From Clostridia bacterium (lineage in GTDB: Bacteria; Bacillota; Clostridia; TANB77; CAG-508): 64,000 bases of DNA. The notes beneath the pieces are model-generated. The model saw only the letters and a program-made list of their open reading frames with translations, made no database searches and was not told where the DNA came from. Below, one piece after another: positions 6,896 through 59,605 of this stretch. Position 1 is the first letter of the stretch; each line of letters starts with the position of its first letter. The stretch covers positions 8,395 through 72,394 of the forward strand of contig JAZNWN010000015.1 in assembly GCA_045593405.1 (NCBI GenBank), given 5' to 3'. The translations under genes were made by a program, and so were the position numbers.

Positions 6896-6924
6896 TTGTA
6901 GGGCGCAATCATGCGCCCCTACAA
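6896..6924. repeat. REP-like GC-rich palindromic element
   Basis: TTGTAGGGCGCA-ATCAT-GCGCCCCTACAA. Confidence 0.75.
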
Positions 6925-6931
6925 CATACAT

Positions 6932-7726
6932 TTATCTGTTAATCATTGCCTTTACTGCGCCTATTGCCGTGCCATATTCAGCATTTTGAGGTATTGTGAA
7001 TTTTATATTATGTAATTTTTCTATTTTATCAAAAACTTTTCTTGCATATGGTATGTTTACAGTTTGACCTATTGCAATTATATTTATTATATTTGAGCCT
7101 TTTGCCCCAAGTGCTGCCATAACTCCTATTGTCTCAAATATCATATTCATTATGCCTAATATTATATCATGATTTGTTGCTTTTTCATTTAATTTTCCAA
7201 AATTTGCAGCTGTTGTATCTTTAGGTAAAGTTTTTATTTCTTCAGTTGTAACATCTTGTATAGTTAAATCTACATTTTTTAAGGTTCCTGTTAATTCTGC
7301 TTTTTTTATATCTTCAAAATTTATTCTTTGATTTATTTTTTTGCATAAATTTATTAGAGTACCTCCACCTATTCCAGTTCCACCTAAGTGAGTAATTACT
7401 CCATTTTCATTTTTAATAAATGCAGTTCCTGTCCCCACGCTTGCTACAATAAATTTTCCTTCTCCAACACTTCCAATAGCAATAAACTCTGGTACTTTCA
7501 CTACTTCTTTATTAAAAAACTTGTCTGCCATGTTATTTGCCCCTACACCTGTAACTGCAATTTTATCTATATTCTCTAAATTAATATTTTTTTTATTTAT
7601 AAACTGTTCCAGCGCTCTTTCTGGTATGTCTTTTTTTAATATCATTTTATTTTTTATATTTATTTTTTTATCTACTTCTATTATTTTTATATTTGATGTC
7701 CCTATATCTATTCCTATGTAGTTCAT
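6932..7726 (-). CDS. coaW: type II pantothenate kinase-like (CoaW-like) ASKHA-fold kinase
   Basis: The N-terminus reads MNYIGIDIGTSNIK. The motifs SVGTGTA, GGTGIGGG and TTAANFGK match those of staphylococcal CoaW. Confidence 0.6.
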   Translation of the reverse strand: MNYIGIDIGTSNIKIIEVDKKINIKNKMILKKDIPERALEQFINKKNINLENIDKIAVTGVGANNMADKFFNKEVVKVPEFIAIGSVGEGKFIVASVGTGTAFIKNENGVITHLGGTGIGGGTLINLCKKINQRINFEDIKKAELTGTLKNVDLTIQDVTTEEIKTLPKDTTAANFGKLNEKATNHDIILGIMNMIFETIGVMAALGAKGSNIINIIAIGQTVNIPYARKVFDKIEKLHNIKFTIPQNAEYGTAIGAVKAMINR

Positions 7727-7883
7727 ATTAAAATACCTCCAATATTTTTATTTTATTAAATATGGAGGTATATGTCAACATCTATTATTTAATTAAACTA
7801 TTGAATTCTCATTAAAATGCGCCTTTATAAAACTTTATTTGGATTCCACCTCACAAATCACACCTCTCACCTCATAAACTTTT

Positions 7884-8816
7884 TTATATTGTTTGAATTT
7901 CTTTCATTAAATTTTTATATTTTATATAAAATACATCTGAATCCTTTTCGTCTAATGAGTTTGCAAGTTCATTTAATAATACATATATTTTATTTGTTTT
8001 TTCTGTTTTGTCTTTTATATAATCTATATCACTAATTATTTCAGAATATACTTGTACTGCTTGAGTCAAATTATCATCTATTTCACCATTTTCTATATCT
8101 TCAGCTAATATATATGCATTTATTATATGACTTTGTGTTTGTCTTAATTTCTGCATATTTTTATCTGCATTTATTTCTTCTAGAAATTCTGGTATATTTG
8201 AATACAAATCTGCAAGTAAAATTAAACTTTGACTTTTATCTTCATTTTTTATGGCAATCATGGATCTATTAAGTTTATTACTAAAGTCTAATATTATGTC
8301 ATTTTTCACATCTAAAGCATATAAGTCTAGTATAATTATAGCCCAACTTTCTTCTAGTAATTCTATATCTTTTTTTATCCCAGTCCAATCTATATCGTTT
8401 CTATCTTTATCAAGTTCTGCATCAATTACCATTGTAGTTGTATTTACTGCATCTGTACTCTCTCCCTCTTGTTCTTGTTTTTCTCCTGCTTCTTTTGTAT
8501 CGCTTGATCCACCGCTTCCTCCTTCACTTGAATTTCCACCTTGTCCATTTGAAGTTTGGCTTCCTTCCCCAGCTTGCGATTGTTGTCCTTCATCACTTAA
8601 TTTCACTTGTTGTGATATAACTGAATAATTTTCAAAAGATATATTGTTTAATCCATTTAACAATTCCAAAGTTTCTACATTTATATAATCTAACTCTGAA
8701 ATCACTTTTGTTTTTAACTCTTCATCTTTATTTTCTGTGCATCCTGTAAAGAAAAATAATGTACAAATCAAAATAATCAAAATTACTATTTTTTTGTATT
8801 TTTTCAAGAAAATCAC
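7884..8816 (-). CDS. lipoprotein with Gly/Ser/Glu-rich low-complexity linker
   Basis: A signal peptide is followed by the lipobox LFFFTGC. The central region is GSQTSNGQGGNSSEGGSGGSS. Confidence 0.6.
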   Translation of the reverse strand: MIFLKKYKKIVILIILICTLFFFTGCTENKDEELKTKVISELDYINVETLELLNGLNNISFENYSVISQQVKLSDEGQQSQAGEGSQTSNGQGGNSSEGGSGGSSDTKEAGEKQEQEGESTDAVNTTTMVIDAELDKDRNDIDWTGIKKDIELLEESWAIIILDLYALDVKNDIILDFSNKLNRSMIAIKNEDKSQSLILLADLYSNIPEFLEEINADKNMQKLRQTQSHIINAYILAEDIENGEIDDNLTQAVQVYSEIISDIDYIKDKTEKTNKIYVLLNELANSLDEKDSDVFYIKYKNLMKEIQTI

Positions 8817-8986
8817 CTGTTGATAGTTTTCCCTAAAAAATACCTTTTATTCTTTTACATATTGTATTTTAGTTTTGCAAATAATAAAAATAATAATTTA
8901 GATGAATTTCAGCCTACCTTTTGTATATTTTAAAATTATTATATTGTCATCTAAATTATTATTTACTTAAATTAATGGAGATTTTT

Positions 8987-9268
8987 ATGAGTGCTATTGC
9001 TACAATTTATAGTGAAAAACCTAATGAGATAAAAAATTTTATTGATAAATTTTATAATGATAATATTAATGTTGAAAATAATTTAGAGCATAAAATAGTA
9101 TTTGAAAACCCTATTCAGCTTTCAGATATAATTAGCGCTTTTATAGATAATAATGATAAATTTAAAATCCACATGTGGATTAGTTTTGACAAGGATTTTT
9201 TTATAAATGTTACTGAATATAATGCAGACAAAATAATAAGGTACCTTTTTGAAAGATACCCGTACTAG
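8987..9268 (+). CDS. hypothetical protein
   Basis: A GGAG RBS lies 7 nt before the ATG at 8987 (MSAIATIYSEKP...). The ORF in the supplied track starts earlier, but that start has no RBS. Confidence 0.4.
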   Translation: MSAIATIYSEKPNEIKNFIDKFYNDNINVENNLEHKIVFENPIQLSDIISAFIDNNDKFKIHMWISFDKDFFINVTEYNADKIIRYLFERYPY

Positions 9269-58032: not shown

Positions 58033-58179
58033 AATAATTCTCTTTTCTAATTAAAACTACAAATTCGCCGATGGAAAAGAATTAAATTTTGGCAAGGAAA
58101 ACTTTATTTAAAAACAAGGGCACATATATTGTGTATGTAACCGCGTTTTAAATGAAATCTAACACAGCCAAAATTGTAA

Positions 58180-59145
58180 TTATTTTTCAACTCTTAGATA
58201 TTTTTTGCATTCGTCTACGATTCTTTGTTTTGCTTCTTCTAGTGGCAATTTAATATTTCCTCCTGCTGCTCTTATATGTCCTCCACCATTAAACATTAAG
58301 CATATATCTGCAACATTTATATAATCATTTGATCTTAAAGAAATTTTATATCCATCTTTTTCTTTATTTTCTCTTAAAAAAATTGATACTTCAACTCCTT
58401 CAACATCTCTTCCCATTTCCACAATTCCCTCATGGCTATCTAATTCAGCATTTAATTTTTCTTCATCATCTCTTGTAATATATGTAAATGCAATCTTACC
58501 GTCTTCTAAAAACTCTAGTCTGTTCATTGCTATCTTTCTAAGTTCAAATCTATTTTTAGAAATAACTTGTAATACTCTTTTATATATACTTGAAACATTT
58601 ACTCCTTTATTTAATAGCTGGGCAACAAATTCGAATGTTTCTGCAGATACTCCTTGGTATTTAAATCCTCCTGTGTCTGTTATTATTCCTGTAAGCAAAC
58701 AAGTCCCTATTTCCTTTGTTATTTCTATTCCTAAGTTTTCTAATATAGTTATTAAAATTTGTGCACATGCTGGTGCTGCAGGATTTACAAAGTTATAATC
58801 CGCAAACATTGTATTTATTCCATGGTGATCTATTTCTATTCTAGAATTTGCATTTTCAAAATACTCTGTATATCCATTTAATCTTTTCATGTCTCCACAA
58901 TCTAACGCTATTGCTAAATCATAAATTGTTTTTGTTCCTTGAGTTTTTATTTCATTTGCACCTGGAAGAAAATCAAAAACAGTTGAATTATTAGCCATTA
59001 CTACTTCAACCTCTTTCCCAAGCTGCTTTAATCCATTATACATTGCTAAACTACTTCCAATAGCATCTCCATCTGGCATTTCATGAGTTAATATAATTAT
59101 GCTTTCAGCATTATATATTTCTTCTTTTATATTATCTATTGTCAT
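58180..59145 (-). CDS. nrnA: bifunctional oligoribonuclease / pAp phosphatase NrnA (DHH-DHHA1)
   Basis: DHH motif HEMPDGDAIGS and DHHA1 C-terminus (GGGH). The gene sits between rbfA and truB. Confidence 0.85.
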   Translation of the reverse strand: MTIDNIKEEIYNAESIIILTHEMPDGDAIGSSLAMYNGLKQLGKEVEVVMANNSTVFDFLPGANEIKTQGTKTIYDLAIALDCGDMKRLNGYTEYFENANSRIEIDHHGINTMFADYNFVNPAAPACAQILITILENLGIEITKEIGTCLLTGIITDTGGFKYQGVSAETFEFVAQLLNKGVNVSSIYKRVLQVISKNRFELRKIAMNRLEFLEDGKIAFTYITRDDEEKLNAELDSHEGIVEMGRDVEGVEVSIFLRENKEKDGYKISLRSNDYINVADICLMFNGGGHIRAAGGNIKLPLEEAKQRIVDECKKYLRVEK

Positions 59146-59173
59146 AGAAGTTTCTCTCCATTCTCTTATAATT

Positions 59174-59554
59174 TTACTCTTCGCTTTCTGGTTTCATGTC
59201 TTTCATGATGTCTTTTAATATATTGTCTATCCTTTCTCCATATACCATAGAATCGTCTAATTCAAAAACTAATTCTGGTGTTATTCTTAAATTAATTTTT
59301 TCAGCCACTCTACTTCTTATAAAGCCTGATGCTGCTTTTAAACCTGCTAGTGTTTGTTTTATATTTCTAGAATTAATTATACTTATAGAAATTTTAGCAT
59401 ATCTTAAGTCTGGTGTTACCTTTACTTTAGTTATACTAATCAATCCTGTAACATTAGAATTTTTTACTTCATAGTTAATTATATTACTAACTTCTCTTTT
59501 TAATTCCTCATTAATTCTAGCTAAACGGTTACTACCATTATTATTTTTTTGCAT
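59174..59554 (-). CDS. rbfA: ribosome-binding factor A
   Basis: The 126-aa protein lies in the nusA-infB-rbfA operon context. Confidence 0.85.
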   Translation of the reverse strand: MQKNNNGSNRLARINEELKREVSNIINYEVKNSNVTGLISITKVKVTPDLRYAKISISIINSRNIKQTLAGLKAASGFIRSRVAEKINLRITPELVFELDDSMVYGERIDNILKDIMKDMKPESEE

Positions 59555-59573
59555 TGTGTTCTCCTTTATTTAT

Positions 59574-59605
59574 TTGTAGGGGTCGGTCAAGACCCGCCCC
59601 CACAA
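59574..59605. repeat. REP-like element
   Basis: TTGTAGGGGTCGGTC-AA-GACCCGCCCCCACAA. Confidence 0.65.

What the first reader, a model, noticed from the sequence alone, without database searches (positions are those of the whole stretch)
6896..59605. Dense family of GC-rich REP-like palindromes with invariant GTAG...CCCCTACAA termini, about 24 copies in 64 kb
Intergenic islands of about 70% GC stand out in a roughly 27% GC genome.
- The consensus is TGTAGGGG-[4-7 variable GC-rich nt]-loop-[complement]-CCCCTACAA.
- The inner stem differs between copies (GCGCA/TGCGC, CAGGG/CCCTG, CGGAC/GTCCG, TCGGTC/GACCCG, CAAGG/CCTTG). Complementarity is always maintained, so there is selection for structure rather than sequence.
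- Copies often occur as doublets 18-30 nt apart. They sit at gene ends, between convergent genes, and flank accessory genes, for example at 13804-13875 and 14868-14950 around the two-gene insert between rpmF and holA.

The conserved GTAG 5' of a hairpin is the recognition and cleavage signature of REP-associated tyrosine transposases (RAYTs, IS200/IS605 Y1 family) in proteobacteria. I know of no comparable REP/REPIN system in AT-rich Clostridia-like Firmicutes.
Basis: partly seen in the sequence, partly recalled or inferred. Interest (0 to 1): 0.65.

Follow-up and report, generated by a model that had tools for sequence, protein, structure and literature searches.

The report
REP elements with RAYT transposase partners
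The GC-rich hairpins are genuine REP elements, small mobile palindromes tagged with GTAG, and close relatives of this uncultured low-GC Clostridia bacterium encode the matching RAYT transposases, so this is a known kind of system in a host group where I found no description of it.

Summary
The window holds about 22 GC-rich hairpins at 14 intergenic sites. GTAGGGG occurs 23 times against 1.4 expected.

The elements are GTAG-tagged REPs. They occur as singletons, as inverted dimers resembling REPINs, and as "double-foot" palindromes. Related genomes (72-90% nucleotide identity) carry the same family at different orthologous intergenic sites, so the elements come and go.

The window itself has no RAYT gene. 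A 26.9% GC contig does: it comes from the same assembly, at the same coverage, as a relative whose LysRS is 96% identical to the window's. Its 166-aa RAYT has the motifs NHVH, WQ and YIENNP, and its coding sequence contains, in frame, the window's commonest REP (GTAGGGGCGCATGATTGCGCCC and its reverse complement). A second RAYT, in a 30% GC relative, carries the window's GGGCTGGTCAAGACCAGCCC REP type.

This matches the published TnpA-REP subclass 2.4, which is RAYT Group 4: double-foot REPs, REPs inserted in frame in the transposase gene, and a patchy distribution across phyla.

The same 24-mer REP also occurs in unrelated genomes of about 50% GC. A related 20-base REP pattern occurs in many phyla.

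This is a new host lineage and a high local density for a known kind of element. A separate, unexplained element linked to tRNA genes was noticed in passing.

The parts
6896..6924 (.). Double-foot REP, TTGTAGGGCGCAATCATGCGCCCCTACAA. It lies 8 nt downstream of the panK-like stop and upstream of lysS.
   Evidence: The site is empty in the relative L124.
13804..13830 (+). REP with a 5' GTAG foot (GGGGCGCA/TGCGCCCC stem). Left half of an inverted, REPIN-like dimer.
   Evidence: L124 has only a weak AT-shifted hairpin at this site.
13849..13875 (-). REP with GTAG on the - strand. Right half of the dimer, 18 nt from its partner.
14866..14892 (+). REP, TTGTAGGGGCGAACTCTGTTCGCCC. Left half of a dimer between convergent genes.
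   Evidence: L124 has a different palindromic element here.
14927..14950 (-). REP with one stem mismatch (GGGCGAT ttta ATTGCCC). Right half of the dimer.
16212..16251 (-). Degenerate REP (TGTAGGGGTCACCCC) plus the tail GCTCTTCGAAGG, 27 nt after the stop of the glycogen debranching enzyme gene.
   Evidence: The whole ~85-nt segment is absent at the orthologous junction in L124. The same tail follows REPs in L121 and L124.
24156..24185 (.). Double-foot REP, ATGTAGGGGCGATTTTAATCGCCCCTACAT.
31652..31677 (+). REP, GTAGGGGCAGAGTTCCACTCCTGCCC. Left half of a dimer with a 2-nt spacer.
31680..31708 (-). REP, GGGCGGACGTGGAAGTCCGCCCCCTACAA. Right half of the dimer.
40152..40173 (.). Possible variant with GTAA/TTAC feet (GTAAGGGTCAGCCTTGGTCGACCCTTA). 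Membership is uncertain.
40198..40226 (-). Singleton REP with one mismatch, lying between divergent genes (secG and an rluA-like gene).
44382..44407 (-). REP, GGTCGC/GCGACC stem. First of two tandem copies in the same orientation downstream of hisS.
44424..44457 (-). REP, GGGCAGGG ATGGAA CCCTGCCC, 12 nt after the hisS stop.
45805..45830 (+). REP with foot GTAGT (GGTCGGT cttg ATCGACC). Left half of a dimer.
   Evidence: This stem type matches the intragenic REP of the RAYT in L286.
45844..45871 (-). REP, GGGCTGGTCAAGACCAGCCCCTACAA, abutting the stop of the PASTA kinase gene.
   Evidence: Its translation VGAGLDQP matches RAYTs P0193 and P0194.
49851..49878 (-). Singleton REP, GGGCAAGG ATGGAG CCTTGCCC.
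50923..50956 (.). Double-foot REP, ATGTAGGGGCAGGGTTCCACCCCTGCCCCTACAT.
   Evidence: One of two REP hairpins flagged terminator-like in 40-60 kb, and the only one flagged on the gene-sense strand.
50970..51000 (-). REP, GGGCGGAG ATGGAA CTCCGCCC, with a CTACAA foot.
51007..51027 (-). Weak remnant, TTGTAGGGTAAAAACCTACGG.
52050..52075 (-). Degenerate singleton REP.
57116..57141 (+). REP, GTAGGGGCGCATGATTGCGCCC. Left half of a dimer. Identical to the first intragenic REP of the RAYT in L163.
57153..57180 (-). REP, GGGCGCAATCATGCGCCCCTACAA. Right half of the dimer. The TAG inside its GTAG foot is the stop codon of gene 57175-58032.
59574..59610 (.). Double-foot REP (GTAG on one side, GTGG on the other) between infB and rbfA.
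   Evidence: It is a REP-sized (about 30-nt) insertion relative to L132.

Best explanation
These are REP elements (repetitive extragenic palindromes): short GC-rich hairpin-forming repeats with a GTAG "foot". They occur as singletons, as inverted dimers (REPIN-like) and as double-foot palindromes.

They belong to the REP type associated with RAYT/TnpA-REP transposases of subclass 2.4 (RAYT Group 4).

**Proposed mechanism, inferred from the E. coli TnpA-REP and IS200/IS605 paradigm.** A single-copy HUH/Y1 enzyme binds the REP hairpin in single-stranded DNA exposed on the lagging-strand template. It reads the GTAG foot, then cuts and rejoins the strand. REPs or REP dimers are thereby excised and inserted into intergenic DNA without target duplication.

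The different stems are distinct subfamilies. At least two of them match their own RAYT gene, which carries a pair of its REPs in frame on either side of the HUH motif.

Because most copies sit a few to tens of nucleotides after stop codons on the sense strand, they are probably transcribed as stable 3'-UTR hairpins. Any effect on mRNA stability or termination would be secondary and was not tested here.

**Shown here:** family structure, intergenic restriction, gain and loss between relatives, cognate RAYTs in relatives, and strand bias.

**Inferred:** catalysis, the mobilising step, and the presence of a RAYT in this particular genome.
For: **The motif and hairpins**
- The motif is strongly over-represented.
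- 22-23 hairpins are all intergenic.
- There are seven doublets, five of them inverted dimers with GTAG facing outward.

**Mobility**
- REP-sized indels occur at orthologous intergenic sites between the window and L124 or L132. The sites are GDE|holA, der|plsY, infB|rbfA and rbfA|nrnA.
- L121 holds two copies of a whole 97-nt REP-spacer-REP unit in different flanks.

**Cognate enzymes**
- L163 is 26.9% GC. It comes from the same ENA assembly as L123, with coverage 8.63 against 8.78, and L123's LysRS is 96% identical to the window's.
- L163 encodes a 166-aa RAYT with NHVH, WQ and YIENNP. It contains GTAGGGGCGCATGATTGCGCCC and GGGCGCAATCATGCGCCCCTACAA in frame, identical to the REPs at window 57116-57180.
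- The homologue in L137 scores Pfam Y1_Tnp 28.8 (gathering score 23) and NCBIfam REP_Tyr_transpos E = 2e-18.
- Its only match among solved structures is E. coli TnpA-REP, 4ER8.
- L286 is 30% GC and its hisS is 72.6% identical in nucleotides to the window's. Its RAYT carries the GGGCTGGTC...GACCAGCCC type seen at 45805-45871.

**Match to the literature**
- Subclass 2.4 is defined by NH[IFV]H / WQ / YIxNNP, long and double-foot REPs, and in-frame REPs inside the gene (PMC6006769).

**Strand**
- All 8 single-foot singletons have GTAG on the - strand. That is the gene-sense, G-rich strand, and so has the sequence of the lagging-strand template.
- In 6 of the 7 G.T stem mismatches the G is on the GTAG strand. 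All 6 are at stem position 3, in relatives L121 and L123.

**Not terminators**
- Only 2 of about 13 REP hairpins in 40-60 kb are followed by a T run.
Against: - No RAYT-like ORF exists in the 64-kb window.
- The rest of this genome, an NCBI contig of 241 kb and beyond, could not be fetched. A cognate RAYT in this very organism is therefore inferred from relatives.
- The link of L163 to the L123 genome rests on shared assembly, coverage and GC content, not on a physical join.
- Only two of roughly six stem subfamilies were matched to a RAYT.
- The NCBIfam REP_Tyr_transpos score (66.6) is below the curated cut-off of 80.
- The strand bias (8 of 8) is confounded with transcription direction, because the flanking genes are on the - strand at all but one of these sites.
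- No transposition intermediate or activity was observed.
Confidence: 0.85

Rival explanations
1. They are ordinary gene-specific transcription terminators or mRNA-stabilising 3' hairpins that evolved in place. They would not be mobile elements.
For: Most copies lie 1-90 nt downstream of stop codons of co-directional genes and are very stable hairpins. The double-foot copy at 50923-50956 is followed by a T run.
Against: - A shared GTAG/CTACAA foot has no role in termination.
- Only 2 of about 13 are followed by a T run, while canonical terminators exist elsewhere in the window, for example at 54804-54824.
- Orthologous sites in relatives are empty or filled.
- One locus lies between divergent genes (40198-40226).
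- The identical sequence sits inside RAYT genes and in unrelated 50% GC genomes.
Confidence: 0.04
2. They are fossil REPs. The family once spread with a RAYT, but this genome has lost the enzyme and the copies are now decaying relics, possibly exapted.
For: No RAYT lies in the window. Several copies are degenerate (16212, 51007, 52050, 40152). RAYT loss with REP retention is reported for many E. coli strains (PMC3733652).
Against: - Many copies are perfect.
- The commonest subfamily is identical over 22-24 nt to the intragenic REPs of a RAYT in a close relative.
- Gain and loss has occurred since divergence from relatives that are 80-90% identical.
- The window is only a small part of the genome.
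Confidence: 0.1
3. They are MITEs mobilised by a conventional DDE transposase that recognises the TGTAGGGG...CCCCTACA ends as terminal inverted repeats.
For: Double-foot copies and outward-facing dimers look like short elements with terminal inverted repeats.
Against: - Most copies have one foot only.
- No target-site duplication is visible at filled versus empty sites.
- No DDE transposase was seen next to copies, whereas Y1 RAYTs carry the sequence.
Confidence: 0.01

Closest known systems
REPs associated with TnpA-REP subclass 2.4 (Quentin et al. 2018, PMC6006769), equivalent to RAYT Group 4 (Bertels et al. 2017, PMC5581495)
   Same: - GT[AG]G foot.
- GC-rich basal stem.
- Double-foot variants with GTAG at the 5' end and CTAC at the 3' end.
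- REPs inserted in frame inside the RAYT gene.
- Motifs NH[IFV]H, WQ and YIxNNP, in a protein of about 165-195 aa.
- Patchy distribution across phyla.
   Different: - The host is an uncultured, spore-former-like Clostridia lineage of about 27-29% GC. It is not among the phyla named for this subclass (Cyanobacteria, Bacteroidetes, Chlorobia, Caldilineae and "various").
- Local density is about 0.35 per kb. Bertels found only modest repeat abundance for Group 4.
- In the relatives' genes the REP pair brackets the HUH motif, one copy before it and one after. The paper places the insertions mainly between HUH and Y.
E. coli REP/BIME elements with RayT (TnpA-REP subclass 2.2; structure 4ER8)
   Same: GTAG-tagged hairpins in intergenic DNA, often as inverted pairs. 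A single-copy HUH/Y1 enzyme recognises the hairpin plus GTAG. Copies lie in 3' UTRs.
   Different: E. coli REPs have longer, bulged stems and flank the rayT gene rather than lying inside it. RayT lacks the two REP-encoded peptide inserts (alignment A1). Protein similarity is low (E = 0.008).
Pseudomonas REPINs with Group 3 / subclass 2.5 RAYTs
   Same: Inverted REP dimers that replicate as a unit. L121 holds two copies of a 97-nt dimer. There are multiple REP families, each with its own RAYT.
   Different: Different RAYT subclass (DH[LF]H, YI[VI]ANP), different REP sequences, and REPs that flank rather than interrupt the gene.
IS200/IS605 insertion sequences (TnpA subclass 1.1)
   Same: Y1 HUH chemistry on single-stranded hairpins, and a bias towards the lagging-strand template.
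   Different: IS200/IS605 elements are autonomous, multi-copy units with subterminal imperfect hairpins and a Y...Q motif. Here the hairpins are dispersed on their own and the enzyme has the class-2 Y...NP motif.
Small repeats known from low-GC Firmicutes, such as BOX/RUP (Streptococcus), STAR (Staphylococcus) and EFAR (Enterococcus). This comparison rests on my own knowledge and on the list in PMC3733652.
   Same: Short intergenic repeats, some of them GC-rich islands in AT-rich genomes.
   Different: None of these has the GTAG-foot hairpin architecture or a Y1 RAYT partner.

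Membership tests
GTAG-tagged REP (Di Nocera 2013; RNAMotif rules of Quentin 2018) | A GT[AG]G tetranucleotide 0-2 nt 5' of a hairpin | tested here: met
   20 of the 23 GTAGGGG sites sit at the foot of a hairpin. The foot is usually (T/A)TGTAG.
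GTAG-tagged REP (Di Nocera 2013; RNAMotif rules of Quentin 2018) | A fully paired G/C-rich basal stem of about 7 nt or more, with a short loop | tested here: met
   Stems are 6-10 bp and start GGG(C). Loops are 3-8 nt, and most copies have 0-1 mismatch. A few copies are degenerate.
GTAG-tagged REP (Di Nocera 2013; RNAMotif rules of Quentin 2018) | Many copies dispersed in intergenic DNA, mainly between co-directional or convergent genes | tested here: met
   22-23 copies at 14 intergenic sites in 64 kb, none in coding sequence. 12 sites lie between co-directional features, 1 between convergent genes and 1 between divergent genes. The genome-wide count could not be tested.
GTAG-tagged REP (Di Nocera 2013; RNAMotif rules of Quentin 2018) | Frequent inverted dimers (head-to-head, REPIN-like) | tested here: met
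   Five outward-facing dimers in the window (13804/13875, 14866/14950, 31652/31708, 45805/45871, 57116/57180). A duplicated 97-nt dimer is present in L121.
GTAG-tagged REP (Di Nocera 2013; RNAMotif rules of Quentin 2018) | A cognate RAYT gene in the same genome that carries or is flanked by the same REP | tested here: inconclusive
It is present in the relatives L163, L137 and L286 with identical REPs.
TnpA-REP subclass 2.4 / RAYT Group 4 (applies to the RAYTs of relatives) | HuH motif NH[IFV]H, W motif WQ, Y motif YIxNNP, length about 194 aa | tested here: met
   L163: NHVH, WQ, YIENNP, 166 aa. L286: NHVH, WQ, YIQNNP, 164 aa. L137: NHVH, WQ, YIKYNP (variant), 170-177 aa. The 118 homologues are mostly NHIH or NHVH with YIxxNP.
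TnpA-REP subclass 2.4 / RAYT Group 4 (applies to the RAYTs of relatives) | REP sequences inserted in frame within the tnpA-REP gene | tested here: met
   In L137, L163 and L164 the inserts read ..VGAHDCA.. and ..RAQSCAPT.. (in L164 the second is a tandem NGAQSC.. repeat). L286 also has two intragenic REPs. The inserts are absent from E. coli RayT.
TnpA-REP subclass 2.4 / RAYT Group 4 (applies to the RAYTs of relatives) | Curated model membership (Pfam Y1_Tnp; NCBIfam REP_Tyr_transpos) | tested here: inconclusive
   For L137, Pfam Y1_Tnp scores 28.8, above the gathering score of 23. NCBIfam NF047646 scores 66.6, below its cut-off of 80, with E = 2e-18.
TnpA-REP subclass 2.4 / RAYT Group 4 (applies to the RAYTs of relatives) | Sequence-specific binding and cleavage of single-stranded REP DNA | not testable with these tools
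   This needs biochemistry.
Intrinsic (Rho-independent) terminator | A GC-rich hairpin immediately followed by a T run on the transcribed strand | tested here: not met
   Only 2 of about 13 REP hairpins in 40001-60000 are flagged (50923-50956 and 44382-44401). Only 50923-50956 is flagged on the gene-sense strand. On the sense strand most are followed by A-rich sequence.
MITE (terminal inverted repeats plus target-site duplication) | Terminal inverted repeats and a target-site duplication | tested here: not met
   Most copies have one foot only. No duplication is seen at filled versus empty sites. Flank divergence limits resolution.

The most novel reading that the evidence does not exclude
In this RAYT clade the transposase gene itself would hold the master copies of its REP. 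Two REPs lie in frame in surface loops on either side of the HUH motif, and the pair changes together across homologues.

Examples of paired inserts are VGAHDCA/RAQSCAPT, VGAGPVSA/ADTGPAPT and VGAGLVPA/AGTRPAPT, each pair being reverse-complement coding.

If so, enzyme and substrate would be one heritable and horizontally transferable package. That could explain how the identical 24-nt REP appears in 27% GC and about 50% GC genomes, possibly within one habitat. It could also explain how a low-GC Clostridia lineage came to hold a dense, multi-family REP population. The intragenic pair could further act as an autoregulatory or self-mobilising cassette.
Probability: 0.2. Interest if true: 0.6.

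Novelty: new member of a known kind. Interest (0 to 1): 0.38.

Why it matters
REP-RAYT systems have been studied almost entirely in Proteobacteria, with some work in Cyanobacteria.

This finding shows a dense, multi-subfamily GTAG-REP population in an uncultured low-GC Clostridia lineage. There are about 0.35 copies per kb in this window, set in a 28.6% GC sequence. Matching subclass-2.4 RAYTs occur in close relatives.

That extends the known host range. It also offers a system in which the elements are trivially detectable as GC islands, which is useful for studying REP turnover, strand bias and horizontal spread of RAYT-REP pairs.

It does not reveal a new mechanism.

Tried and rejected
**Dead ends**
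- Exact-protein look-ups of window genes to fetch the rest of the genome failed. This included the 100%-identical LysRS P0001, which is on an NCBI contig of 241 kb.
- A RAYT HMM, built from E. coli RayT plus RAYT ORFs next to the same REP in other phyla, found nothing in the window at E <= 1.
- My first two hairpin finders under-called the family because they were too strict about where the stem starts. One search is the usable census.
- The literature search for "RAYT" plus "Firmicutes" returned noise from author names.
- The supplements of PMC6006769 held as text do not mention Clostridia or Firmicutes.
- Rfam at gathering threshold finds only tRNAs in the window.

**Readings considered and rejected**
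- CRISPR-like array. L069 has three copies spaced 68 nt apart, but the intervening segments are also similar to one another, so it is a tandem REP cluster.
- Terminators.
- MITE with terminal inverted repeats and a target-site duplication.

**Side question**
- The viral-contig scan for the 14-mer of the tRNA-linked element returned mostly chance hits in GC-rich contigs. Only L264 has the real module.

Full report
**Observation**

The motif is real and far above chance. GTAGGGG occurs 23 times against 1.37 expected, and CCCCTACAA 10 times against 0.16. The window is 28.6% GC. The elements are islands of at least 65% GC that fold at -12 to -37 kcal/mol.

A census anchored on the GT[AG]G foot, checked against the raw listings, gives 22-23 hairpins at 14 intergenic sites between 6896 and 59610. 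None lies in coding sequence, although genes fill 86.5% of the window.

The elements take three forms:
- Double-foot palindromes, four copies: 6896, 24156, 50923 and 59574.
- Inverted dimers with GTAG facing outward: 13804/13875, 14866/14950, 31652/31708, 45805/45871 and 57116/57180.
- Single-foot singletons or tandem copies.

- Doublet spacing is 2-34 nt.
- The two genes at 13277-14817 are not an insert bounded by elements. One dimer lies between them, and the relative L124 has both genes without those REPs.

**Organism**

The genes are housekeeping genes: lysS, holA, thyX, secG, infB, rbfA and hisS. The LysRS is identical to a protein on a 241-kb NCBI contig. Its nearest named relatives are "MAG: Clostridia/Clostridiales bacterium". 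Relatives carry sporulation genes. I could not fetch the rest of this genome.

**The family is not confined to the window, and it moves**

Syntenic contigs of relatives carry the same GTAG-hairpin family with partly different stems. These are L121, L123 and L124, which are 78-90% identical in nucleotides, and L131 and L132, which are 65-79% identical.

At orthologous intergenic sites the elements are present in one genome and absent in the other:
- The window has an insert of about 85 nt with a REP at GDE|holA. L124 lacks it.
- L124 has a REP-containing insert at der|plsY. The window lacks it.
- The window has a REP-sized (about 30-nt) insertion at infB|rbfA relative to L132.
- L132 has a REP at rbfA|nrnA. 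The window lacks it.

L121 contains two copies of a complete 97-nt unit (REP A, spacer, REP B) in unrelated flanks. This is the behaviour of a REPIN-like dimer.

**Wider distribution**

The hits come from Cyanobacteria, Chloroflexi, Acidobacteriota, Planctomycetes, Deltaproteobacteria, Oscillospiraceae, Ruminococcus and others.

The window's exact 24-mer variant was found in 38 metagenome contigs. Roughly half of these are 26-37% GC and half about 43-58% GC.

**The enzyme**

I built a RAYT HMM from E. coli RayT plus RAYT-like ORFs found next to the REP in five of the 120 loci. It finds nothing in the window.

It does find a 177-aa ORF in the 27.5% GC contig L137 (E = 5e-43). Both REP copies of that contig lie inside the ORF, in frame. 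They encode ..IVGAHDCAL.. and ..FRAQSCAPTK.. on either side of the HUH motif NHVH. The protein passes Pfam Y1_Tnp (28.8 against a gathering score of 23). It matches NCBIfam REP_Tyr_transpos at E = 2e-18, which is below that model's cut-off.

Its 74%-identical homologue P0124 lies on L163:
- L163 is 26.9% GC and encodes secA, prfB, yabP/yabQ and rho.
- It comes from the same ENA assembly as L123, at nearly the same coverage (8.63 against 8.78). L123 carries a LysRS 96% identical to the window's.
- The L163 RAYT (166 aa; NHVH, WQ, YIENNP) contains GTAGGGGCGCATGATTGCGCCC and GGGCGCAATCATGCGCCCCTACAA. These are the same sequences as window 57116-57141 and 57153-57180.

The only solved structure it matches is E. 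coli TnpA-REP, 4ER8. In that alignment the REP-encoded peptide is an insertion.

Translating the window's REPs and searching the 120 RAYT homologues links a second subfamily to a second RAYT type. GGGCTGGTCAAGACCAGCCC at 45844-45871 matches ..VGAGLDQP.. in P0193 and P0194. P0194 lies on L286, a 30% GC contig whose hisS is 72.6% identical in nucleotides to the window's.

Across the homologues, the peptide before HUH and the peptide after it change together, as expected for reverse-complement copies of one REP.

**Comparison with the literature**

- Di Nocera et al. 2013 (PMC3733652) define GTAG-tagged REPs. The features are 6-13 bp stems, head-to-head dimers, and a preference for sites between co-directional or convergent genes. 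They report them in Proteobacteria, Cyanobacteria, Chloroflexi and the PVC superphylum. Firmicutes are not mentioned.
- Quentin et al. 2018 (PMC6006769) describe TnpA-Y1 subclass 2.4, which is Bertels' RAYT Group 4. Its features are NH[IFV]H, WQ, YIxNNP and a median length of 194 aa. Its REPs are "long" and "double foot" (5' GT[AG]G plus 3' C[TC]AC). As a unique feature, REPs are inserted in frame inside the tnpA-REP gene. The subclass occurs in Cyanobacteria, Bacteroidetes and various phyla, with a patchy distribution suggesting horizontal transfer.
- Bertels et al. 2017 (PMC5581495) report Group 4 in 17 bacterial classes, with only modest flanking-repeat abundance.

Every defining feature I could test is met. 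The system is therefore a member of a known kind in a host lineage for which I found no description.

**How it most likely works**

By analogy with E. coli TnpA-REP and IS200/IS605 (established knowledge; PMC6006769 background), the RAYT binds the REP hairpin in single-stranded DNA. It reads the GTAG foot, then cleaves and rejoins the strand, spreading REPs or REP dimers.

Two observations fit a strand-specific, single-strand substrate:
- All 8 single-foot singletons have GTAG on the - strand. That strand is G-rich and gene-sense, and so has the sequence of the lagging-strand template.
- In 6 of the 7 G.T stem mismatches the G is on the GTAG strand. All 6 are at stem position 3, in relatives L121 and L123.

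The strand bias cannot be separated from transcription direction in this window.

The hairpins are not canonical terminators. Only 2 of about 13 in 40-60 kb are followed by a T run. Because most sit just after stop codons, a secondary role as 3'-UTR stabilisers or roadblocks is plausible but untested. In one case the TAG of the foot is the stop codon of gene 57175-58032.

**Limits**

- No RAYT has been shown in this very genome.
- L163 is tied to the relative by assembly, coverage and GC content only.
- Four stem subfamilies have no identified RAYT.
- The pairing statistics were computed on hairpins selected as hairpins.

**Verdict**

The novelty claim is reduced to a new host lineage, and a notably dense population, for the known subclass-2.4 RAYT/REP system.

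**Seen in passing**

An unexplained module follows five tRNA loci. It ends with an exact 21-nt copy of the 3' end of the preceding tRNA. It may deserve its own investigation.

Noticed in passing
window 24300-24490, 30520-30686, 34815-34992, 42780-42991, 54795-55003 (- strand): **Position.** A module follows the last tRNA of five tRNA loci (Leu, Tyr, Phe, Gln, Glu). tRNA-Thr lacks it.

**Order of parts**
1. A locus-specific terminator-like hairpin.
2. Conserved GGAAGGAATCGAAAAGGAGG.
3. An optional 37-nt insert.
4. The hairpin AAAAAATGTCCAGTGGACATTTTTT.
5. GACGCGGCTTGC.
6. An exact copy of the last 21 nt of that same tRNA, from the T loop to CCA.

**What was checked**
- The core 14-mer occurs 5 times against 0 expected.
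- It is absent from the 165 loci fetched before the viral-contig scan.
- No Rfam family matches.
- One 30% GC viral contig (L264, 6380-6500) has the same module next to a partial tRNA 3' end.

**Possible readings.** A miniature integrative element or att scar of a tRNA-targeting integrase, or a retro-copied tRNA end. This is unresolved.
   Followed up: partly
L137 787-1320; L163 10001-10501; L286 6573-7067; proteins P0121-P0240: RAYT genes of this clade carry two REPs in frame, one before and one after the HUH motif. The two encoded peptides change together across homologues, for example VGAHDCA/RAQSCAPT, VGAGPVSA/ADTGPAPT and VGADAHICP/GSMWASTPT. Of 118 homologues, 42 show both inserts and 88 show the second. 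In-frame REPs are reported for subclass 2.4, but the paired, co-varying arrangement around HUH may deserve study.
   Followed up: partly
L164 4306-4848: A RAYT in a 47% GC Clostridiales contig has the second intragenic REP amplified to three tandem in-frame copies (..NGAQSCDANGAQSCATNGAQSCAPTG..). This shows REP expansion inside the gene.
   Followed up: no
L124 2590-2680 and 7870-7965: The relative L124 carries a different palindromic repeat of about 90 nt (CTTTTAGGGAC[GA][CG]GTCTC ... GAGAC..GTCCCTAAAAG). It sits at two intergenic sites where the window has either a REP dimer or nothing. It looks like a second, MITE-like family in this lineage.
   Followed up: no
window 1584-1761 (GC-rich 1642-1705); L121 15250-15430: A GC-rich intergenic segment next to the tsaD-like gene is conserved at about 80% with L121. 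In L121 it folds at -47.8 kcal/mol. No Rfam match at E <= 0.1. It is a candidate structured RNA.
   Followed up: partly
window 41173-41276: There is a cluster of GC-rich hairpins without a GTAG foot between convergent genes. One is CCCCTTTAATAAGGGGG, followed by GTCACC..CCAGGTGACTGGGGG. No Rfam match. They are probably bidirectional terminators.
   Followed up: partly
L069 2674-2834 (Nostocaceae MAG): Three identical REPs are spaced 68 nt apart, and the intervening segments are similar to one another. This is a tandem REP cluster, not a CRISPR array.
   Followed up: no
window 6932-7726 versus L124 9725-10005: The type II pantothenate kinase gene is intact in the window and in L123. In L124 it is reduced to a remnant of its 3' end, showing gene loss between close relatives right next to a REP site.
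   Followed up: no
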